Of a stretch of 64,000 bases of DNA, positions 8,402-51,386 are shown piece by piece. Position numbers and translations under genes: made by a program. Position 1 is the stretch's first letter. Every line of letters starts with the position of its first letter. The notes under the pieces are model-generated. The model was not told the DNA's origin, made no database searches, and saw only the letters and a program-made list of their open reading frames with translations. The DNA is from Dictyostelium discoideum. Taxonomy: Eukaryota. Location of the stretch: the NCBI GenBank assembly GCA_000004695.1, contig CM000150.2, positions 3,488,001 through 3,552,000 of the forward strand, written 5' to 3'.

Positions 8402-8895
8402 TCACTCGCAACAATTAGAATTAAAATAATTATATAAAAAATAAAAAATAAATCCCATAGATTAGAACTTTTTAAATTTAAAATATATTCTTAATAAATC
8501 TCTCACATAGTTTGGTAGAGAATTTCCAGTAGAAATGTATGTTATACAAAATTTATTGGGGGATGGAATGAAATATAAAGAATTCATCAAAGACAATCTT
8601 CATTAAATTGCATATAATAGGTATGCCAGTATAATTTAAAAAAAAACTGAAATTTTTAATCCTTTGATACCTTTTACAATTTTTACTCAAAAAAATAAAT
8701 ATATAAAAAAAAACAAAAATGACTAGAAAAAAAAAAATATCTATTAATAGATAGTGTTTTACAAATTCCATCATAAATATCAAATAATATTTTTTTTTTT
8801 TTTTTTTTTTTATCAGTTAGAAATAAAATAATGCCATTTTTGACATATTTTTTTTTTTTTTCTTTTACTTTTCTTTTTTTTTTTTCTTTTACTTT

Positions 8896-8937
<42 letters not shown>

Positions 8938-8968
8938 TTTCATTCATTTACCAATTTTAAAATACAGA

Positions 8969-10286
8969 ATGTTATCTACAGAAATATTATTTTGGAAAGT
9001 TATAAGAAATAAATATTTATTTAGGAAAATATTTGAAAAAATTGAAAACGAGTTATATTATACAGATTATCAAAAGTATCATGTTTTAAATAGAATCAAA
9101 TTTAAGAATATTCATTCATTCGATTGGATGATAAAACAAAAGTTGTACTCATTAATAAAGAGTAAAATCAAGTTTAATGATATTATTCATTTTGAACCAA
9201 CATCAATTACAAATTTTTTCTTAATAACATCAACATCAACAACAAGTACAACTATAACTACAACTTCATTTGAAAAAGAGATTGAAAATGAAAATCAAAT
9301 TAAAATCTTTAAACAATTATTAAAATTATTAATGAATTATAGAAGAGGTGAATTTGAAATTAAAGATTTAATAGAGACATCAATTGCAACTAGTAATCCA
9401 CATGCTATTGAATTATTTATATGTACAAAGAATAATTATCAATTATCATTGACATCAAGACAATTTAGATATATTATATTTAATGATAGTTTTTCAATTG
9501 AACTTATAAAATCATTATTTAAACAACAAACTAAACAACAATTAGAAGAGAATCAATTAGATAGTTTTAATTTTGAAAAGAATTATTATAATAATAACAA
9601 CAATAACAATAACAATAACAATAACAATAATAATAATAATAATGGTGATGATTATTATTGGTTAAAAGAATTAAAAAAATTCATTCTTTTAACTTCAATT
9701 TATTCATCTAATAGTAGTTTTAGTGATAATATTAAAAAGGAATTCCAAAAATTTTACAATCACTATTTAGAAATTTATGATGAACCAATTGAAGAATTAA
9801 ACCAAGATTTTGATTTAATTTATAGATATTCAATAAAAAGATATAGTTTAAAATCATTAAAATTCTTAATTAAAAATAATTATTTTGAATCACAAATTTT
9901 AGATAAAAAAAGAAAATTACAACAACATAAACAAGGAAATAATAATAGTAATTATAGTATTAATAGTATTAATAATAATAATAATAATAATATTAGTAGT
10001 GGAACAAAAATTATAGCACCAATAGAATTTATACATAATAATCCAGATCAAGTGATTGAATTTATTAAATTATATTATTCTGTTGGAATAAACCCAGACT
10101 TTCCACCATTCGATTTCATTGAAACATTTCGTTCAATATTATTTAATGATAATGCATCAACTCTATATAATAGGTTAGTTAAATCAATACCAGACCCTGA
10201 AATAAATATTGCTCAACTTCCACTTGAATTTCATCCAGTATTACCATACCTATTTATAACAAAAAAAAGTTCACCTTCCTTACATT

Positions 10287-27794: not shown

Positions 27795-29258
27795 ATGTTT
27801 TCAAAAAAAATATCATTGTATAATAAAACTAATGGAAAAAAAGATAATTCATCAAAAGTATTTTTATTTGTAATATTATTTGTTGTTTTAGTAATTGTTT
27901 TTGTGCAAAGTTTAAGTATTTCACAATTTAACAATGAAATCTCACAAACAACCTCAATAACTATAGATACTAAAGAAAGTAATGATAATAATAATTTAAT
28001 TATTAATAAAAATAATAATAATGAAAATATAAATAATAATAATAATAATGATAATAATGAAAGTGATGAAGATGCATTATTAAGAAAACAACATCAAGAA
28101 TTTAAAGAAGCAGAAGAGAAAGCAAATAAAGGAAAAAGTTTATCATATGCAACAAGATCATATGCAACTAGAAAACCAAAAGAAAAATCAGAACAACAAA
28201 TTGAAAATGAAAAATTAACATTATTAGAGAAAGATATTTTAAGAGGTAGAGTTTTTAAAGAGTTTAAAGATGAAGTTGAAATATTAAAGAGTCTTGACAC
28301 TGATCCAGGTTATGCAAGCATATTGAATTTACCAGATTATAAGCCACCAACAGGTGACGAATTGGTAGACAAAGTTAAAGATACCACATGGAAATTAAGT
28401 AAAGAGGAAAACCCATTCTATTTACCAAAACCACATATTTTCATCCACGTTCCAAAGGCAGCAGGAAGCAGTTTGGGTGGAATTTTCAAGAGAAATGAAA
28501 AGCGTGATAAATTTGCGCACCATTGGAAACATCCATCCTATTCAGAACTTGAAAGTACTATGCAAAAAGATTCAATTTTCGGACATATTAGATACGGTCT
28601 TCATTTCTATTTCAATGATAATGACCCAACTAGAGTACCAGAGAATCCATATGGTTTAAATAAGTATTCCTATATGACAATGTTAAGAGAACCAGTGGAT
28701 AGAGTCATCTCAAATTACTATTATCATAGACAAAATAGAAAAGATCCATTCCATGAATTAGCAATGAATCATAATTTAACAGAATGGATTAAAGTTGCTG
28801 CAGCTGGTAATAATGAGCAAGCCAGAATGATTTGTGGTATGGGTTGGGAGGATTTCGGTAACCAAACCATCTACGATATGGCACTCCATCATTTAAAATA
28901 CACTTTTAAATTTGTCGGTATAACTGAACAATTTACAGAGAGTTTGGTTTTATTTTCCCATTATAGTGGTTTTCAAAATATTAGATACTCTAAAATCAAT
29001 ACCGGTAGACAAAGAGTATCTGTTGATAAAATTCCTGACGATTTAAGAAAAGAGATTGAAGAAAGAAATTGGATAGATGTTGCACTCTATAAAATGGCTT
29101 TAGATATCTATAATAAACAAATTGATCAAATTGGTAGAGATTTCTTTGAACAAGAAGTAGCCGCTTACAAAGATAGATATTTATCTGGAAAATATAAAGT
29201 ACCAAATATTTTACATACAACTAAACCAGTTGAACAAACTCAACAACAACAACAATAA
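27795..29258 (+). CDS. Type-II membrane (Golgi-type) carbohydrate sulfotransferase, Sulfotransfer_2-like (487 aa)
   Basis: An N-terminal signal-anchor (VFLFVILFVVLVIVFV), then the 5'-PSB motif IFIHVPKAAGSS and the 3'-PB motif LREPVDRVISNYYYH. Confidence 0.7.
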   Translation: MFSKKISLYNKTNGKKDNSSKVFLFVILFVVLVIVFVQSLSISQFNNEISQTTSITIDTKESNDNNNLIINKNNNNENINNNNNNDNNESDEDALLRKQHQEFKEAEEKANKGKSLSYATRSYATRKPKEKSEQQIENEKLTLLEKDILRGRVFKEFKDEVEILKSLDTDPGYASILNLPDYKPPTGDELVDKVKDTTWKLSKEENPFYLPKPHIFIHVPKAAGSSLGGIFKRNEKRDKFAHHWKHPSYSELESTMQKDSIFGHIRYGLHFYFNDNDPTRVPENPYGLNKYSYMTMLREPVDRVISNYYYHRQNRKDPFHELAMNHNLTEWIKVAAAGNNEQARMICGMGWEDFGNQTIYDMALHHLKYTFKFVGITEQFTESLVLFSHYSGFQNIRYSKINTGRQRVSVDKIPDDLRKEIEERNWIDVALYKMALDIYNKQIDQIGRDFFEQEVAAYKDRYLSGKYKVPNILHTTKPVEQTQQQQQ

Positions 29259-29399
29259 AAAAAAAAAAAAAAAAAAAAAAAAAATAAAAATTAAAAATTA
29301 AATTAAATTAAATTAAAAAAAAAAAAAAAAAGATTTAAAAAAGTTTAATATTTATTTGTTATTATTATTGTTTTTTAAAAAAGATAAAAAAATTTAAAA

Positions 29400-29872
29400 T
29401 TAATTTCTTAAAAATAATGATTTATCTAATGTCATTCCTAAAATTACCCAACCTGCCATAAACAAGAATCCACCAATTGGAGAAACACCCTATTATTAAG
29501 TTTTAAAAAATTTTAAAATTTTTAGTATTTTTTTTTTTTTACCAAAGTCTGGATAAATTTTTTTTTTTTTTTTTTTTTTTCTTTTTTCAAAATAATTACT
29601 ATTTTTCTATTTGTAAGTGATAAATTATATAATGATCCACTAAATAATAAAATTCCAGTTAAAAACATTGGACCAACAATATTTTGTTGTGTTGAGAATG
29701 GAACAAGGAATAAGGCAAATGAATGATAAAGATGGTATTGTTGTGCAGTTTTCCAAATATCTTGACGTGCTACATCAGTAACTTTTTTCTTTAATCCATG
29801 TCCACCATAAGCACCTGAAATAATAGCACTACAAGCGCTAATTCCACCAATTTTCCACCAAAGTTCGTTCAT
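29400..29872 (-). CDS. TMEM256 / DUF423 family small membrane protein, copy 1. Exons (minus): 29600..29872, 29400..29489.
   Basis: MNELWWKIGGISACSAIISGAYGGHGL...YHLYHSFALFLVPF matches the TMEM256 AYGAHG...HSLALL core. Exon 2 GVSPIGGFLFMAGWVILGMTLDKSLFLRN* matches the APAGGTLLLLGWLALAL tail. A GTAATT donor after RKI is conserved in both copies. An alternative GTAAAA donor after FIQTL exists in copy 1 only. Confidence 0.7.
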
Positions 29873-29892
29873 TTTTAATAATATTGAGATAA

Positions 29893-29923
<31 letters not shown>

Positions 29924-29940
29924 TTAAAAAAATTTTGGCC

Positions 29941-29972
<32 letters not shown>

Positions 29973-30241
29973 AAAAACATATCAAATCAAAATAATTAAA
30001 CTATTTTGTAATCATTCAAAAATAATTAAGATTAAAAAAAAAAAAAAAAAAATTAAATATAGAAATTTAAAAAAAATGAATTGTTTTGAGTGATTAAAAA
30101 AAAATAATTCAAAATAATAAAAAAAGTTAAAACACCATGGTGAAAATATTAATTTCCCAAAATACATCCACATAAAAAAAATATAATTATTGTGTGTTTG
30201 TATTATTATCCACTTTTGAATTTTATTTATTATTAATAAAT

Positions 30242-30306
<65 letters not shown>

Positions 30307-30420
30307 TAATTATTGGGCACAATTACACTAATAACTTAATCAATTAAGAAAAAATAAATAATAGGACAAAGGTAAATAAAATTTGAAAAATAAAAAAAAA
30401 AATATAAAAAAAAAAAGAAA

Positions 30421-30737
30421 TAATAATCATTTTCTTAATCTGATTCAGCGGTTCATTTGGTTTAGGTTAAACAGGTACAGGCTCATAAGGTATAAAGCAT
30501 TTATCCGGTACAGGTTTATTAGGTTCATCAAGTAAAAATGCATATTTAAGGTTTATCAGATTCAAAAATTTTAACATTTGATAGGTACAGGTTTAACAGG
30601 TACATGTTTATAAGGTACAGCTTAAGCAGGTTCATCAGGAACAGGTCTAACATGTTCATAGGGTTTATCAAGTTTTTAAAGTGCAGGTTAAACAGGTGCA
30701 GGCTTGACAATTTCATCAAGTTTTACAGTTTAACATA
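30421..30737. repeat. Degenerate period-8 repeat (units like AGGTACAG / AGGTTTAT / AGGTTCAT), about 40 units, ~40% GC
   Basis: Seen directly: ..caggtacaggctcataaggtataaagcatttatccggtacaggtttattaggttcatcaag.., with G/GT recurring every ~8 nt. It has no codon periodicity, is bounded by AT-rich DNA and abuts the duplication breakpoint at 30738. Confidence 0.6.
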
Positions 30738-30807
30738 TAGATATTTATCTGGAAAATATAAAATATTAAATATTTTACAAACAACTAACAACTCAAAAAT
30801 AAAATAA
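30738..30807 (+). pseudogene. Duplicated 3'-terminal fragment of the sulfotransferase CDS (copy of 29169..29230)
   Basis: atagatatttatctggaaaatataaaatattaaatattttacaaacaactaa matches gatagatatttatctggaaaatataaagtaccaaatattttacatacaactaa. The ORF 30604..30807 ends RYLSGKYKILNILQTTN against the parental DRYLSGKYKVPNILHTTK. Confidence 0.7.
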
Positions 30808-30934
30808 AATAAAATAAATTTAAATAAAATAATTATCTAATAAATTAAATTAAATTAAATAAAAAAAAAAAGATTAAAGAGAGTGTAAAATTTATTTATT
30901 GGTTTTTAAAAAAAAGGATGGAAAAAAATTAAAA

Positions 30935-31427
30935 TTAATTCTTCAAAAATAATGATTTATCTATAGTCATTCCTAAAATTACCCAACCTGCCATAAATGA
31001 TACTCCACCAATTGGAGGAAGTTTCTATAATTTTTAAAAAATAAAAATTTTAGTTTTTTTTTTTTTTTTTAATAATTACTATTTTTCTATTTGTAAGTGA
31101 TATATAATATAATGATAAATTTTTTTTTTTTTTTTTTTTTTTTTTAATAATTACTATTTTTCTATTTGTAAGTGATATATAATATAATGATCCACTAAAT
31201 AATAATATTCCACTTAAAAACATTGGGCCAACAATATTTTGTTGTGTTGAGAAGGGAACAAGGAATAAGGCAAATGAATGATAAAGATGGTATTGTTGTC
31301 CAATTTTCCAAATTTCTTGACGTGCCACATCGGGAACTTTTTTCTTTAATCCATGTCCACCATAAGCACCTGAAATTATAGCACTACAAGCAACAACTCC
31401 ACCAATTTTCCACCAAAGTTCATTCAT
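30935..31427 (-). CDS. TMEM256 / DUF423 family small membrane protein, copy 2 (tandem paralog, ~90% identical). Exons (minus): 31155..31427, 30935..31024.
   Basis: MNELWWKIGGVVACSAIISGAYGGHGLKKKVPDVARQEIWKIGQQYHLYHSFALFLVPF... Exon 2 is KLPPIGGVSFMAGWVILGMTIDKSLFLKN*. The same GTAATT/ATAG splice architecture. Flanking 3' sequence is homologous to copy 1. Confidence 0.7.
31069..31192. repeat. Tandem duplication of a ~46-bp unit (aataattactatttttctatttgtaagtgatatataatataatgat) at the exon1/intron boundary of TMEM256 copy 2
   Basis: Two copies are separated by a poly-T run. They duplicate the ..SLTNRKIVII exon end and its GTAATT donor (the ORF track shows ..SLYYISLTNRKIVII twice). Confidence 0.7.
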
Positions 31428-32579
31428 TTTTAATAGTATTGAGAAAATAAAAAAAAAAAAAAATTAAAATAAAATTTTATTTAAAAAAAAAAATATCATA
31501 TACAAAATTACAAAAAATGTTATATTAATATTTTTAAGCGTTGTATGAAAATATTAATTTTTATAAAAACAATAATAAAAAAAAAAGTATTTATTAGTGT
31601 GTTTATGTTATTATTCACTATTGAATTATTATCATAATTAATGAAAAAAAATTGATCTATTAGAAAAAGAATTAACCGGTAAAGTGGTTTATCTAGATTT
31701 TTTTAAAAATTGTAATGTTTATCTAATTAAGATTTAAAATATTTTTTTAGTCTGAAATTATAAAAAAGAATTACAAATTACATCAAAAACTAAAAATAAA
31801 CTAACGTTTAATGATAAAAAAATTAATAATTCCAATAATAATTGTCTTAATTATAATTTCATCTAAATTTCTTTTTTTTTAATTTACATTAATAAAAAAA
31901 AAAAAAAATTTTAATAAATGAAATTCATTTTTTTGGGTGTTTTTTGTTTTCCTTAATTTACATTAAAAAAAAATAAAAAAAATTAGCGGTGGGCAAAAAT
32001 CGGTTATTACTATTTATTATTATTGTGATTATTATTTTTATTATTATTTTTATTATTATGGGATGTTTTCAATCAAAATTTAATGGCCTGTCTATTACCA
32101 GAAGGTGTTCAAGTTTTTTATTTTTGTGATAATAAACAAGAATACAGGAACCCAATAAAGACTGTATTTTTATAAGATAGATTCATTCAAATTAAAAAAA
32201 AAACAGGGTGCACTATTACTAAAAAAAAAAAAAAAAAAACAAAAATAAAAAATAAAGGTGAAAAGATTTTTTTTTTATCGTTTGTAGATTTGTATTTTAA
32301 ATTTTTTTTTATTTTTTTTCTTGATTTGGTTTGGTTGGTGGGTTTTGAGATAACAATAAATTAATAGGTTTAAAAGTTGAATTTTATTTTAGGATGTGAA
32401 AAAAAATTTTCAAAATAATTATTATAATAATTCCTCACTCCTGATTTTTGGTTGGAAAGTTGATTTTTTTTTTTTTGGGTTATAATTCTTTGTTGATTTT
32501 TAATATTTTTTATTTAATGATTTAAATAAAATAAAATCCATTTATTAAGAAATGCGAAATAGAAAAAAAATAAAAATAA

Positions 32580-32613
<34 letters not shown>

Positions 32614-32869
32614 AATTGATAATTAAAAATAAAAAAATAAAAATTAAGTAATGAAAAATTAAATAATATAATTTAAATTTAATTAAAAAAGAAATTTTGT
32701 TTTTTTTTTTTGATGAAAGAATGATTCTTCACCTTCTTTGATCCTTTTAATCAAACTTAAAGTTTTAATAAAAAAAAATTAAAAAAATGAAATTCATTAA
32801 TTTTCTTTTAGTGTTTTTTAATTTTTTAATTTTTTGTTTTTTTTTTTTTTTTTTTTTAAAACTTTAAGT

Positions 32870-32959: not shown

Positions 32960-34817
32960 ATGATCAAAGCATTAGCAGCAGTTAAAAAACAAATTGAAGA
33001 AATAAATGAATGTAAGTTTTTATTTTTTATATTTTATTTTTTATTTTTTATTTTTTTTTTTCTTTATTAGTATCATCAAGTGACACTAATAATAAATTTT
33101 ATTATTTTTTTTTTAATTTTTTAATTTTTTTAATTTTTTTTATTTATTTTCTAAAATTAAAAAAGATGAAAAAAGAATTGGACCAGATTGTAATTTATCA
33201 CAATTCCAAGTAACATTAGAGAATTTTAATAAATTAAGACAAGCACAAAATGCAGTTATATTAGCTAAACAAAGTAAAGCAAATAGTGGTAAGATAGTTG
33301 AACCAACCGAAGCACAATTGGTAGCCAATTTCATTGAATGGTTAAAGGGTAAAGGATTTGATGAAAGTAAATGTAAAGTAAAGATTGATAGAAACACATC
33401 AGAGGGTACTGGTTTAGTTGCAACTCAAGACATTAAAGAGGGAGAGGATTTTGTAGAGATACCAAGCAACCTTTTCATTACGACTGCAGTAGCATTCCAG
33501 GGATTGGGAAAACCACCAATTTTAGAGAATGACCGTTTAATTCAATCGATTCCAGGTATTTTATTATCAATTTTTTTAGTTAAGGAATTGTCCAACCCAA
33601 CCTCTGAATGGGGACCATATATAAAACTATTACCAAAACAATACAACACCGTCTATTATTGGGGTCTCAAGGAGTTTACCCAATTCAGAGGCTCACCAAA
33701 TTTAGAGTATGCCATGAGATATGTTCGTGGTGCCATGCGTCAATATTGTTATCTCTACTCAATGATTGATCGTACTCAAAGTAATATTATGCCAATTTCA
33801 TCATTTACATGGGATGCCTTTGTTTGGGCCATTTCAACCGTTCAATCACGTCAAAATCCAGTCTATGCAGGTAATGGTAATGGTAGTATTATGGCTTTGA
33901 TTCCATTTTGGGATTTCTGTAATCACTCAAGCACCGGTAGCAAAATCACCTCATTCTATCACATGGATTCCAATTGTATGACCAGTGGCGCCATAAAGGA
34001 TTTTAAAAAGGGTGAGCAAGTTTACATGTTCTATGGACCACGTGATAACACTCAATTGTTAATGCATGCTGGTTTCGCAACTAAAACCAATCTCCATGAT
34101 TCTTATCCATTCGAATTACATTTGTTAGAAGGTAATCATGAAATTCGTCATGATAAAGTTCATCTCCTCGAAGAACGTGGTATTAGAGATGGTGTCGTTG
34201 TAAACTTAAATCAAAATCCAACCTCAAATGAACTCCCACTCGAATTGATTCCATTCTATCGTATCTATGCCCTCAGTGAACAAGAAACTCGTGCAATCGC
34301 ACCACCACAAGTACCTGGTGAACATAATCATCATCATGGCCATCAACTCGAACTTAAACCATTGGCTTTCAAAATTATCACTCAAGAGAATGAAGAGAAA
34401 GCTTATTCAAATTTGGTTCAAGCACTCAAAGGTAAACTTGCTTCTTATCCAACCACTTTAGAAGAGGATGAACAAGAATTGAAAAAGAATCCACCTGCAA
34501 ATCAAAGATTCATTTTATACACTAAAATCAATGAAAAGAAAATTTTAGATAGAAATATCAAATATCTTGAATCTTTAATTAAAAAAGGTGTTATGAATGT
34601 TACCTTCAAATTACCAGAATTAGTTGAACATACTGAACATGCTAATCATGATCATGAACATGGTGATAATTGTAATCATGAAGATCATGGTAGTCATGGT
34701 CATTCTCATGGTGGTGATGATAGTCATGGTCACTCTCATGGTGGTAATGATAATCATAATCATTCACATGGTGGTCATGGTCATTCACATCAACATGGTG
34801 CAAATTGTAACCATTAA
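32960..34817 (+). CDS. SETD3-like SET-domain protein methyltransferase with Rubisco-LSMT-type substrate-binding region and a His/Gly-rich C-terminal tail. Exons: 32960..33011, 33166..34817.
   Basis: Exon 1 MIKALAAVKKQIEEINE + T ends at a GTAAGT donor. The exon-2 acceptor is AAAAAG, giving ..YEKRIGPDCNLSQFQVTLENFNKLRQ.. like the SETD3 N-terminus. FIEWLKGKGF..GTGLVATQDIKEGEDFVEIPSNLFITT matches SETD3/LSMT FxxWL..GxGLxAxxDI..GE..xxIP. The tail HEHGDNCNHEDHGSHGHSHGGDDSHGHSHGGNDNHNHSHGGHGHSHQHGANCNH is in frame. Confidence 0.75.
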
Positions 34818-49959: not shown

Positions 49960-51386
49960 ATGTCACATAAAGATAGACGTGGAAATTCATCAAATGATGG
50001 AAGTTCTTGTAAATTTTCTTTTTTTTTTTTTTTTTATCAATTTAACAAATAAAATAAAAATACTAATTTTTGGAATAAAATAATAATAAAAATAATAATA
50101 ATATTAATAGTTAAGTTAAATGAAACTTTTACATCAAGTGAAGTTGAAGTTAAACCAACATTTGAATCAATGGGATTACGTGAAGAATTATTAAGAGGTA
50201 TTTTTAATTATGGATTTGAAAAACCATCAGCAATTCAACAACGTGCAATTTTACCAATTATTAAAGGTAGGGATACGATCGCACAAGCACAATCAGGTAC
50301 AGGTAAAACAGCAACATTTTCAATTGGAGCATTACAATGTGTAGAAGTGAATGTAAGATCACCTCAAGTTTTAATATTATCACCAACAAGAGAGTTAGCA
50401 CAACAAATTCAAAAGGTAGCATTGGCATTATCAGAGTTTATGAATATTCAAGTCCACGCATGTGTTGGTGGAAAGAATTTAAGTGATGATGTTAAGAAAT
50501 TAGAGACTGGTGTTCACATTGTTAGTGGTACACCAGGTCGTGTATTAGATATGATCACTCGTAAATCACTTCCAACTCGTCATATTAAAATGATGATTTT
50601 AGATGAGGCCGATGAGATGCTTTCATTGGGTTTTCAACAACAAATTAATGATGTATATAGATATTTACCAAATGGTACTCAAATCGTATTAGTATCAGCT
50701 ACTCTAACACAAGATGTAGTTTCAATGACTGAAAAATTTATGACAAAACCAGTTCGTATCCTATTGAAACGTGATGAACTCACTTTGGATGGTATCAAAC
50801 AATTCTTTGTATCTGTAGAGAAAGAAGATTGGAAATTCGGTACACTTTGCGATATCTACGATAGTCTTACAATCACTCAAGCTGTAATTTTTTGTAATAC
50901 TAAAAAGAAAGTAGATCAATTAACTGAACAAATGCGTGATGCTAATTTCACTGTAGCCTCAATGCATGGTGATATGGTACAAAAAGAAAGAGAAGAAATT
51001 ATTAAATCATTTAGATCTGGTGAAAAGTTTGGATTTTTTTTTTTTTTTTTTTTTTTTCTTCTTCAAAAAATCATAATTTCTGTTAATTAATTGATTCATA
51101 TACTAATTATTATTTTATTTTATTATTATTTAGTCGTGTTTTAATTACAACAGATATTTTAGCTAGAGGTATTGATGTTCAACAAGTTTCATTAGTTATA
51201 AATTATGATTTACCAATAGATCGTGAAAATTACATTCACAGAATAGGTAGATCCGGTAGATTTGGTCGTAAGGGTGTTGCAATTAATTTCGTTAAAAACT
51301 CTGACATTAGAATTTTAAGAGATATTGAACAATTTTATTCTACTCAAATTGATGAAATGCCTGTAAATTTTGCTTCAATCATTTAA
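49960..51386 (+). CDS. DEAD-box RNA helicase eIF4A-III (exon-junction-complex helicase, FAL1/eIF4A3 type). Exons: 49960..50008, 50111..51026 (uncertain 3' end), 51134..51386.
   Basis: Exon 1+2: [87 protein letters not shown].. (human eIF4A3 [55 protein letters not shown]). DEAD, SAT and HRIGRSGR motifs present. The eIF4A3-specific C-terminus [26 protein letters not shown] is present. The exon2/3 junction needs a GTTTGG donor to keep frame (gives ..FRSGEN|RVLITTD). Confidence 0.9.

What the first reader, a model, noticed from the sequence alone, without database searches (positions are those of the whole stretch)
29169..31427. Segmental tandem duplication of [sulfotransferase 3' end + TMEM256 gene], with the upstream breakpoint filled by a period-8 G-containing repeat
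The last ~57 bp of the sulfotransferase CDS (29169-29225) reappears at 30738-30795, followed by homologous 3' flank and a second, ~90% identical two-exon TMEM256 (DUF423) gene. Where the remainder of the sulfotransferase should be, there is instead a ~320 bp array (30421-30737) of degenerate 8-nt units (AGGTACAG / AGGTTTAT / AGGTTCAT...) at ~40% GC. That composition and periodicity are alien to both Dictyostelium coding DNA (period 3, AT3-rich) and its intergenic DNA (A/T homopolymers). I would expect this to be a young duplication breakpoint associated with an uncharacterised short-period satellite. The second TMEM256 copy also carries an internal 46-bp tandem duplication spanning its exon-1 donor.
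Basis: seen in the sequence. Interest (0 to 1): 0.6.

Follow-up and report, generated by a model that had tools for sequence, protein, structure and literature searches.

The report
Old DUF423 tandem duplication, orphan minisatellite
This is an ordinary, already annotated tandem gene duplication on Dictyostelium discoideum chromosome 1; it is old rather than young, some wild strains have lost it again, and a small 15-base repeat of unknown origin sits inside the dead leftover of the neighbouring sulfotransferase gene.

Summary
The window is D. discoideum AX4 chromosome 1. The self-similarity is real: 29173-29925 matches 30737-31476 at 80% over 787 columns. Both DUF423/TMEM256 genes are intact and already annotated (DDB_G0269766, DDB_G0270942).

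Eight orthologous loci from other Dictyostelium genomes change the interpretation.
- **Age:** the duplication is old. Orthologous second copies exist in AX4 and in the divergent strain FIZ (100% bootstrap).
- **Selection:** the second copy evolves faster but is still constrained (dN/dS 0.28).
- **Loss:** strains FIW and FIR lost one unit by unequal recombination, and FIY has a partly deleted second unit.
- **Breakpoint:** the original left breakpoint lay at or upstream of sulfotransferase position 28960, not at 29173. The array therefore does not fill the duplication breakpoint. It sits inside the decaying sulfotransferase relic.

The array (30448-30732) is real and compositionally distinct. 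Its unit is 15 nt (AGGTAC + AGGTTTAAC), not 8 nt, and its GC is 30-37%, not 40%. It has exon-like three-base periodicity but no open frame. I found no homologue in any frame, no copy elsewhere in the window or the other loci, and no significant similarity to the sequence it replaces. Its origin is unresolved.

Overall this is an ordinary structural variant of low interest.

The parts
27795..29258 (+). Sulfotransferase-like gene DDB_G0269764 (487 aa, single exon). It is the parent of the duplicated 3' fragment.
   Evidence: The ORF is listed. The sequence exactly matches XP_646260.1. Pfam Sulfotransfer_2 scores 46.8 bits against a cut-off of 22.
29173..29399 (+). Start of duplication unit 1 as still recognisable in AX4. 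It holds the last 86 nt of the sulfotransferase CDS and the shared 3' intergenic flank.
   Evidence: blastn matches 29173-29925 to 30737-31476. Ungapped identity is 94% for the CDS fragment and 89% for the flank.
29400..29872 (-). DUF423/TMEM256 homologue copy 1, DDB_G0269766. Exon 2 is 29400-29489, the intron 29490-29599 and exon 1 29600-29872.
   Evidence: The spliced 120-aa product exactly matches XP_646261.1. Pfam DUF423 scores 78.7 bits. Orthologues are present in all 8 other loci.
29873..30426 (.). Upstream region of copy 1 (region A), the paralogue of the region upstream of copy 2. It contains an 82-nt tandem repeat (29946-30125) and a 59-nt poly(A) run.
   Evidence: 30141-30246 matches 31546-31651 at 72% (D16). 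30283-30340 matches the FIZ inter-unit region, which in turn matches 31816-31914. The repeats are listed.
30427..30451 (.). Left flank of the array (AATCATTTTCTTAATCTGATTCAGC), shared with strain FIY. Its origin (end of region A or sulfotransferase relic) is not resolved.
   Evidence: A 24/24 match to L001. Alignments to the sulfotransferase gene, to the copy-2 upstream region and to the FIZ junction are all non-significant.
30448..30732 (.). Degenerate minisatellite ('the array'). Its 15-nt unit is AGGTAC + AGGTTTAAC, with variants of 9 and 24 nt and higher-order copies. GC is 30-37% and every frame contains stops.
   Evidence: Tandem Repeats Finder finds periods 15 and 24. Seven of the 8 window matches to the unit fall here, against 1.24 expected. 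No copy exists elsewhere.
30733..30795 (+). Sulfotransferase pseudogene relic, matching sulfotransferase positions ~29170-29236 with an 11-nt deletion. It is the non-coding remnant of the co-duplicated gene end.
   Evidence: 48/52 identity (D20). The alignment is A1.
30935..31427 (-). DUF423 copy 2, DDB_G0270942. Exon 2 is 30935-31024, the intron 31025-31154 and exon 1 31155-31427.
   Evidence: The spliced 120-aa product exactly matches XP_646262.1. Pfam DUF423 scores 77.1 bits. It is orthologous to FIZ copy 2 (100% bootstrap). dN/dS between these orthologues is 0.28.
31054..31191 (-). AX4-specific 75-nt tandem duplication at the exon 1/intron boundary of copy 2. The two identical 63-nt blocks are 31054-31116 and 31129-31191.
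   Evidence: Direct comparison. It is absent from FIZ copy 2 and from every copy 1 (alignment). Reading through to the second donor would add 25 in-frame codons (ORF 31050-31427).
31428..31920 (.). Upstream region of copy 2 (region A'), ending near the inferred right breakpoint of the duplication (about 31914-31945).
   Evidence: 31444-31726 matches the single-copy strains FIW and FIR at 82-83%. 31816-31914 matches the FIZ inter-unit region (83/113).

Best explanation
**What it is.** A head-to-tail segmental duplication of about 1.5 kb on D. discoideum chromosome 1. It originally copied at least the last ~300 bp of the sulfotransferase-like (ST) gene DDB_G0269764, the whole DUF423/TMEM256-homologue gene, and about 0.5 kb of that gene's upstream region.

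**When it arose.** It arose before the AX4-type strains split from the divergent 'cf. discoideum' strain FIZ, at about the depth of the split from D. citrinum.

**What happened afterwards.**
- Shown: the second DUF423 gene (DDB_G0270942) is intact in AX4 and FIZ and evolves about 3-7 times faster at non-synonymous sites, but with dN/dS still well below 1.
- Shown: the co-duplicated ST piece is a dead relic that each lineage has trimmed differently.
- Inferred from a mosaic pattern: the ancestor of FIW and FIR deleted one whole unit by unequal homologous recombination.
- Shown: FIY deleted most of copy 2.

**The array.** The 285-bp array in AX4 is a degenerate minisatellite with a 15-nt unit. 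It lies inside the ST relic, where ST ~28960-29172 should be, not at the original duplication junction. My best inference is that it is non-functional DNA produced by a secondary event in the relic, either local repeat expansion or a deletion repaired with inserted filler sequence. The 75-nt duplication in the intron of copy 2 is a very recent AX4-lineage slippage event.
For: - **Identity of the locus:**
- **Duplication:**
- **Orthologous loci:**. FIZ has two full units plus a partial third; FIY has a remnant; FIW, FIR, two D. citrinum, D. dimigraforme and D. firmibasis have one copy.
- **Age:** AX4 copy 2 and FIZ copy 2 form a clade with 100% bootstrap. In the ST gene tree FIZ lies outside (AX4, FIW, FIR, FIY) with 100% support, and (AX4, FIW, FIR) has 76%. 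dS is 0.173 between the AX4 copies, 0.128 between AX4 and FIZ copy 1, and 0.114 between AX4 and D. citrinum.
- **Constraint:** dN/dS between the copy-2 orthologues is 0.28, against 0.04-0.09 for copy 1.
- **Unequal-recombination loss:** in FIW and FIR the first ~70 nt upstream of the ATG carry copy-1-type diagnostic bases and the rest carry copy-2-upstream type, with essentially a single switch (pattern AAAPAAPPPP...). Supporting blast scores are 332 against 101.
- **Breakpoint:** the FIZ relic matches ST 28960-29031 (61/74, p<0.002) and the FIY relic matches ST 29141-29219 (64/81, p<0.002).
- **FIY remnant:** it keeps the copy-2-type start of exon 1 (sequence; blast).
- **Array is secondary and dispensable:** FIY has 24/24 of the left flank and then the ST relic with no array. 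Copy 1 is conserved in all strains that lack the array.
- **No sign of function or known family:** stops in every frame, no protein homologue in six frames, no Rfam hit.
Against: - **Array origin:** it is not established. It has no significant similarity to the ST segment it replaces.
- **Informative strains:** only FIY is informative about absence of the array. FIW and FIR lost the unit, and FIZ deleted the relevant stretch.
- **Unit divergence:** unit-to-unit identity is 61-82%. That is too low for an expansion younger than the AX4-FIY split (3.1% ST divergence). The array is therefore either older and was lost from FIY, or was imported already diverged, or arose by an error-prone process.
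- **Composition:** its exon-like GC and three-base phase are unexpected for neutral Dictyostelium non-coding DNA.
- **Dating:** it rests on 354 and 1253 aligned nucleotides. Placement of the copy-2 clade after the D. citrinum split has only 63% bootstrap support. Gene conversion between the copies could distort dS.
- **Not examined:** expression of copy 2, and the genome-wide copy number of the array.
Confidence: 0.75

Rival explanations
1. One reading: a young tandem duplication whose upstream breakpoint was filled, at the time of duplication, by an uncharacterised short-period (8-nt) satellite associated with rearrangement breakpoints.
For: The array directly abuts the recognisable sulfotransferase fragment at 30733-30737. 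It is compositionally distinct from the flanking intergenic DNA. No local source was found for it.
Against: - The duplication is shared with the outgroup strain FIZ, and dS between the copies is 0.17.
- The relics in FIZ and FIY reach sulfotransferase positions 28960 and 29141, beyond the AX4 boundary. The AX4 boundary is therefore not the original breakpoint.
- FIY has the same left flank without the array.
- The period is 15, not 8.
Confidence: 0.07
2. The array is a decayed fragment of a coding tandem repeat. On the minus strand it would read as a (V/D)(K/E)PVP pentapeptide repeat, and on the plus strand as GTGLT. It was copied in from elsewhere in the genome during repair of a deletion in the sulfotransferase relic.
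For: - GC by phase is 0.35/0.69/0.06, like Dictyostelium exons, where the third position has 0.13-0.17.
- GC of 30-37% equals exon level.
- Spacings between copies are nearly all multiples of 3: 9, 15, 33, 15, 15, 24, 42, 15, with one exception of 77.
- The minus strand reads DEPNKPVPDKC...VPVKPVPIKC.
- The high divergence between units fits import of an already old repeat.
Against: - No protein with E<=10 in a 5.8-billion-cluster collection that includes the AX4 proteome and the new Dictyostelium annotations, in any of six frames.
- The best frames contain 5-7 stops and a frameshift.
- Proline would be encoded almost only by CCT, whereas D. discoideum strongly prefers CCA (my own knowledge of its codon usage).
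- A 15-nt unit built as 6 + 9 gives multiples of three without any coding history.
Confidence: 0.2
3. The array grew in place from the sulfotransferase relic itself. Slippage or unequal exchange between two nearby TT(C/T)ATC-containing 9-mers in the relic seeded a 15/24-nt repeat, which then expanded and diverged.
For: - Array 30461-30508 aligns 33/48 to the FIY relic, directly after the shared left flank and with the same spacing (p 0.05-0.11 before counting the positional coincidence).
- ATTTATCCGG (30499-30508) and ATTTATCTGG (30742-30751) bracket most of the array.
- The TT(C/T)ATC motif recurs at least six times in the array and twice in the relic.
- This origin would explain why there is no copy elsewhere and why the composition is exon-like.
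Against: - The chained-alignment test is not significant (P = 0.066 against random exon 52-mers, 0.13 against shuffles).
- Alignments to the sulfotransferase gene itself are at chance level.
- 69% identity to the FIY relic is far below what orthologues at about 3% divergence should show.
- Unit divergence of 18-39% needs either more time than the AX4-FIY split allows or an error-prone process.
Confidence: 0.3
4. The array is a functional element, for example a distal upstream element of copy 1 or a 3' end/terminator element of copy 2.
For: It lies 575-860 bp upstream of the copy 1 ATG and about 200 bp downstream of the copy 2 stop codon. Its G content has not decayed to the intergenic level.
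Against: It is absent from every other strain and species examined, while copy 1 and its proximal ~100-nt promoter are conserved. FIZ keeps a constrained copy 2 without it. No Rfam family matches.
Confidence: 0.04
5. The array is an assembly or cloning artefact in the AX4 reference.
For: No direct evidence. The block is unique, and the second AX4-like assembly that carries identical proteins (KAM9941051/52/72) could not be retrieved.
Against: Both flanks are continuous with sequence shared with FIY. The composition and codon-like AT third positions look like Dictyostelium, not vector or E. coli. Only chance 21-mer hits were found in prokaryote and metagenome collections.
Confidence: 0.03

Closest known systems
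Tandem segmental gene duplication with later loss by unequal (non-allelic homologous) recombination: ordinary copy-number polymorphism
   Same: - Two direct-orientation units share coding and non-coding sequence.
- A truncated copy of the neighbouring gene sits at the unit boundary.
- The single-copy strains have a sequence that is a unit-1/unit-2 mosaic.
- The number of units varies among strains: 1, about 1.2, 2, and 2.5.
   Different: Nothing essential. The junction itself cannot be placed to the base because the flanks are AT-rich and low in complexity.
Large duplications in laboratory stocks of D. discoideum (Bloomfield et al. 2008, PMC2643946, seen)
   Same: Same organism. Both show that copy number varies between stocks and isolates.
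   Different: According to their abstract those duplications are 15 kb or more and arose recently in axenic laboratory stocks. This one is about 1.5 kb, predates strain divergence and is present in wild isolates.
Minisatellite (tandem array of 10-60-nt units with higher-order structure)
   Same: - Head-to-tail degenerate 15-nt units, with periods 15 and 24.
- Higher-order copies at spacings of about 110-125 and 221 nt.
- Presence or absence differs between strains.
   Different: Units are only 61-82% alike. The GC content and three-base phase look like exon sequence. D. discoideum non-coding repeats are normally almost pure A+T (my recollection of the 2005 genome paper, which I could not retrieve). 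Whether it is one locus or a family is unknown.
Filler or templated insertions at double-strand-break repair junctions (end joining, microhomology-mediated repair)
   Same: Relative to FIY, about 40 nt of the sulfotransferase relic are replaced by about 285 nt of unrelated sequence. That is the deletion-plus-insertion signature of such repair.
   Different: No donor sequence was found. Typical templated insertions are much shorter and are traceable to nearby sequence.
TMEM256 / DUF423 (PF04241) family
   Same: Both genes pass the Pfam threshold (78.7 and 77.1 bits against 25) and have the same two-exon structure.
   Different: Copy 2 has 15 amino-acid differences in 118 aligned residues and a raised dN/dS. 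The function of the family is unknown.

Membership tests
Tandem segmental duplication | Two adjacent, same-orientation copies whose similarity is far above chance and extends through non-coding flanks | tested here: met
   80.4% over 787 columns at E = 0. The 3' flank is 89% and the intron 96% identical over ungapped columns. The upstream block is 72% identical.
Tandem segmental duplication | A truncated copy of a boundary gene at the start of the second unit | tested here: met
   Sulfotransferase relic 30733-30795. Independent relics occur in FIY (sulfotransferase 29141-29219) and FIZ (28960-29031).
Young (strain-specific) duplication | Copies nearly identical, and the duplication absent from the closest outgroups | tested here: not met
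   dS between the copies is 0.17. An orthologous copy 2 exists in the outgroup strain FIZ.
Period-8 satellite | Dominant repeat period of 8 nt | tested here: not met
   Lag 8 gives z = 2.0 against z = 6.5 at lag 15. Tandem Repeats Finder reports periods 15 and 24. GG spacing alternates 6 and 9 nt.
Minisatellite | Head-to-tail array of 10-60-nt units, above chance | tested here: met
   Tandem Repeats Finder scores are 56 and 65. The repeat family has 10 copies of 31 nt. Seven unit matches fall in the array against 1.24 expected in the whole window.
Dispersed satellite or repeat family associated with breakpoints | Further copies at other loci, enriched at rearrangement junctions | not testable with these tools
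   No whole Dictyostelium genome was searchable. There are no copies in the other 63.7 kb of the window or in 8 x 20 kb of orthologous loci.
Protein-coding repeat (live gene) | An open reading frame across the array | tested here: not met
   Every frame has stops. The best frames have 5-7 stops plus a frameshift.
Protein-coding repeat (relic) | Detectable homology to a protein in some frame | tested here: not met
   No hit with E<=10 for the minus PVP frame, the plus GTGLT frame, or the four remaining frames.
Protein-coding repeat (relic) | Three-base periodicity with an AT-rich third position | tested here: met
   GC by phase is 0.35/0.69/0.06, compared with 0.39/0.29/0.17 in the sulfotransferase CDS and 0.13/0.12/0.11 in intergenic DNA. 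A 6 + 9-nt unit would give this pattern without any coding history, so the test is not decisive.
Sulfotransferase-derived sequence (decayed pseudogene) | Significant alignment to sulfotransferase positions 28953-29172, which the array positionally replaces | tested here: not met
   The global alignment gives z between -0.3 and 1.1. Local alignments give p = 0.17-0.93. Control exons score as high or higher. Only a marginal match to the FIY relic was found (p 0.05-0.11).
Transposable element fragment (including tRNA-targeted TRE elements) | Terminal repeats or a target-site duplication; a nearby tRNA gene for TRE elements; TE-encoded protein similarity | tested here: not met
   No terminal inverted repeats or flanking direct repeat. 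No tRNA gene anywhere in the window. No protein similarity. Non-coding TE parts could not be compared.
Known structured RNA | A match to an Rfam covariance model | tested here: not met
   No match with E<=1 in 29000-32200 on either strand.
DUF423 / TMEM256 (PF04241) | Pfam gathering score passed | tested here: met
   78.7 bits for copy 1 and 77.1 bits for copy 2, against a cut-off of 25.

The most novel reading that the evidence does not exclude
The array is one copy of an undescribed, G-containing 15-nt-unit repeat in D. discoideum. It would be either a dispersed satellite or mobile sequence that gets inserted at repaired breaks, or the last trace of a lost proline-rich-repeat gene. Its genomic distribution would then mark sites of past rearrangement.
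Probability: 0.08. Interest if true: 0.45.

Novelty: new member of a known kind. Interest (0 to 1): 0.15.

Why it matters
It matters little beyond this locus. Both genes are already annotated, and tandem duplicates are common in this genome.

The useful outcome is a worked example. A small duplication that looks 'young with a strange breakpoint filler' in a single genome turns out, once sister genomes are compared, to be an old copy-number polymorphism. It has been lost by unequal recombination in some wild strains and is decaying in different ways in others.

Two points may be of minor practical interest to Dictyostelium researchers:
- DDB_G0270942 is absent or broken in several wild isolates, so it is dispensable there.
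- The AX4 allele carries a strain-specific 75-nt duplication at its exon 1 donor.

The origin of the 285-bp exon-like repeat is the only open question. One genome-wide BLASTN search would settle it.

Tried and rejected
- **Array as a decayed sulfotransferase (ST) coding sequence.** Local, global and position-restricted alignments with shuffles were all at chance. One apparently significant permissive alignment to ST 28102-28389 was shown to be a composition effect, because unrelated exons score higher.
- **Array as an inverted ST piece.** The reverse-complement scores were lower.
- **Array copied from elsewhere in the window or the orthologous loci.** Sensitive blastn and 8-mer enrichment scans found nothing. 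The one outside match to the unit (50295) is the SGTGKT motif of an eIF4A-like helicase.
- **Coding parent.** Three protein searches covering all six frames gave no hit with E<=10.
- **Foreign origin.** Exact 21-mer scans of the metagenome and prokaryote-genome collections gave 14 single hits. All encode GTGLTGT inside unrelated ORFs, and the similarity ends after 21-29 nt.
- **Structured RNA.** No Rfam hit.
- **tRNA-targeted retroelement context.** No tRNA gene in the window.
- **Self-seeding from the relic.** Suggestive but not significant.
- **Exact junction of the duplication.** All candidate alignments of the 30415-30460 flank and of the FIZ junction gave p = 0.08-0.4.
- **A third decayed DUF423 unit in 31960-32610.** Only weak collinear hits (p = 0.07-0.29).
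- **Retrieving the AX4 or AX4-like contigs** to check the assembly: not on record.
- **Literature on the three gene identifiers:** none found. The 2005 genome paper is not held.

Full report
**Identity of the locus.** Exact-sequence look-up places the window on D. discoideum AX4 chromosome 1 (contig of 4,923,596 bp).
- The 487-aa ORF at 27795-29258 (+) is DDB_G0269764.
- The spliced 120-aa products of the two minus-strand genes are DDB_G0269766 ('transmembrane protein 256 homolog') and DDB_G0270942.
- Pfam confirms Sulfotransfer_2 for the first and DUF423 for the other two.
- Both DUF423 genes are therefore already annotated. No paper in the searchable library mentions any of the three identifiers.

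**Check of the observation.** The duplication is real.
- The repeat finder reports 29173-29224 = 30737-30788 (92%), 29387-29497 = 30922-31032 (86%), 29565-29864 = 31120-31419 (93%) and 30141-30246 = 31546-31651 (72%).
- A gapped blastn joins 29173-29925 to 30737-31476 at 80.4% over 787 columns. Ungapped identity per segment is 87-98%.
- In copy 2, a 63-nt block (T17 plus 46 nt) is identical at 31054-31116 and 31129-31191. This 75-nt tandem duplication spans the last 37 nt of exon 1 and the GTAATT donor. It is absent from all other copies.
- Between the units lies a block with GC 0.30-0.37, flanked by intergenic DNA at 0.08-0.16.

The description of the array needs correction.
- Tandem Repeats Finder gives periods 15 (AGGTACAGGTTTAAC) and 24.
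- Autocorrelation z-scores are 6.5 at lag 15, 4.9 at lag 9, 4.6 at lag 24 and 2.0 at lag 8.
- GC of 30421-30737 is 32.5%.

**Comparative evidence.** Using proteins of the same 90% clusters, I retrieved 20-kb orthologous loci from eight other assemblies:
- D. cf. discoideum FIY (L001)
- D. discoideum FIW (L002) and FIR (L003)
- D. cf. discoideum FIZ (L004)
- D. citrinum FIV and FIU (L005, L008)
- D. dimigraforme (L006)
- D. firmibasis (L007)

All have the order sulfotransferase (ST) gene - DUF423 - SET-domain gene.
- FIZ has two annotated DUF423 genes. It also has a third partial unit, where L004 reverse-complement 8887-9215 matches window 29309-29652.
- FIY has one gene plus a remnant: the shared left flank, an ST relic, and then the copy-2-type first ~75 nt of exon 1.
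- The other six have a single copy.

**Age and fate of the duplication.**
- An NJ tree on 354 exon positions groups AX4 copy 2 with FIZ copy 2 in 100% of bootstraps, on long branches.
- A tree on 1253 ST positions gives ((((FIR,FIW),AX4)76%,FIY)100%,FIZ)100%, then the other species.
- The duplication therefore predates the FIZ split. FIW and FIR, which are nested among duplication-bearing strains, must have lost a unit.
- dS is 0.173 between the AX4 copies, 0.128 between AX4 and FIZ copy 1, and 0.114 between AX4 and D. citrinum. The counts are small, but this is not a young event.
- dN/dS between the copy-2 orthologues is 0.28, against 0.04-0.09 for copy 1. This indicates relaxed but real constraint.
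- In FIW and FIR, the diagnostic sites upstream of the ATG switch once. They are copy-1 type for the first ~70 nt and copy-2-upstream type for the rest (blast scores). This is the mosaic expected from unequal homologous recombination between the two units. The step is inferred, not observed.

**Where the original breakpoint was.**
- The co-duplicated ST piece matches ST 28960-29031 in FIZ (61/74) and ST 29141-29219 in FIY (64/81). Neither score was reached in 500 shuffles.
- In AX4 the recognisable homology starts only at ~29170.
- The duplication therefore began at or upstream of ST 28960, and each lineage has since deleted different parts of the relic.
- The right breakpoint maps near 31914-31945 in the copy-2 upstream region. 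The exact junction cannot be placed statistically.
- The AX4 array thus sits inside the relic, where ST ~28960-29172 should be, and not at the duplication junction.

**The array itself.** It spans about 30448-30732.
- The unit is AGGTAC + AGGTTTAAC with many variants, and there are higher-order copies. Unit identity is 61-82%.
- GC by phase is 0.35/0.69/0.06, and copy spacings are almost all multiples of three. The block therefore looks like exon sequence. The minus strand reads ...DEPNKPVPDKC...VPVKPVPIKC and the plus strand reads GTGLTGT.... All frames carry stops, and a frameshift lies near 30530-30580.

The searches for a source all came back empty.
- No significant similarity to the ST segment it replaces, by local, global or positional alignment. 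One spurious 'hit' was exposed by exon controls.
- No similarity to the rest of the window or to the eight loci.
- No protein with E<=10 in any of six frames, in a collection that includes the Dictyostelium proteomes.
- No Rfam family.
- No tRNA gene nearby that would suggest a tRNA-targeted retroelement.
- Only chance 21-mer matches, all coding for GTGLTGT, in metagenome and prokaryote contigs.

There is one hint.
- Array 30461-30508 aligns 33/48 to the FIY relic, immediately after the shared flank (p about 0.05-0.1).
- ATTTATC(C/T)GG occurs at 30499 and again at 30742.
- A chained-alignment test of self-seeding is not significant (P = 0.07-0.13).
- Only FIY is informative about absence of the array, and it lacks it.

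**Interpretation.**
- Shown: an old tandem segmental duplication, a constrained but faster-evolving second DUF423 gene, lineage-specific decay of the ST relic, and copy-number polymorphism among strains.
- Inferred: loss by unequal recombination in FIW and FIR.
- Inferred with moderate confidence: the array is non-functional and arose secondarily in the relic, either by in-place expansion or by a deletion repaired with inserted sequence.
- Its high unit divergence relative to the AX4-FIY split (3.1% in the ST gene) and its exon-like composition remain unexplained.
- Assembly artefact is unlikely. It could not be excluded directly because the AX4-type contigs could not be retrieved.

**Verdict.** This is an ordinary structural variant containing one small orphan repeat. 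Interest is low. The single decisive follow-up is a whole-genome nucleotide search with the array.

Noticed in passing
window 31960-32766 (flanking repeats 31898-31959 and 32767-32832): A 0.65-0.87-kb segment between DDB_G0270942 and the SET-domain gene (ATG at 32961) is present only in AX4 and FIY. It is absent from FIW, FIR, FIZ and the other species, and is bracketed by a 62-nt direct repeat (78%). Its origin is unknown. Weak collinear hits to the end of DUF423 exon 2 and exon 1 are not significant (p 0.07-0.12), so a third decayed unit is possible but unproven.
   Followed up: partly
window 31815-31878: This 64-nt stretch matches FIW and FIR in inverted orientation (92% and 89%). This suggests a small inversion or rearrangement polymorphism in the DUF423-SET intergenic region.
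   Followed up: no
L004 (FIZ), reverse-complement coordinates 8587-8832, 9418-9661 and 8887-9215: FIZ carries a third, partial duplication unit (3' flank, exon 2 and part of the intron). It also has a ~245-nt AT-rich element present twice at 81% identity between the units. Neither was found in the other loci.
   Followed up: partly
window 31050-31427 (minus strand): The 75-nt duplication in copy 2 is in frame. Use of the second identical donor would therefore insert 25 residues ([25 protein letters not shown]) without a stop. The annotated model uses the first donor.
   Followed up: partly
window 29946-30125 and 30243-30301: An 82-nt tandem repeat (2.2 copies, 73%) and a perfect 59-nt poly(A) run lie upstream of copy 1. 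This region has diverged much more than the equivalent region upstream of copy 2.
   Followed up: no
window 29226-29258 and the orthologous sulfotransferase genes in L001-L008: The C-terminal tail of the sulfotransferase varies between strains and species in its poly-Q length and ending ([15 protein letters not shown], and a different tail in D. firmibasis). The D. citrinum FIU gene model starts further downstream, giving 455 aa.
   Followed up: no
window 50295-50309: The only match to the array unit outside the array lies in the [10 protein letters not shown] motif of an eIF4A-like DEAD-box helicase gene. It is a chance match.
   Followed up: yes
L009-L022 (metagenome and prokaryote contigs): The 21-mer GGTACAGGTTTAACAGGTACA recurs in unrelated aquatic metagenome contigs. 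It always encodes GTGLTGT within Gly/Thr/Ser-rich ORFs that look like tail-fibre proteins (for example FSGPGTGLTGTASGLSIGG). It is unrelated to the Dictyostelium array.
   Followed up: partly
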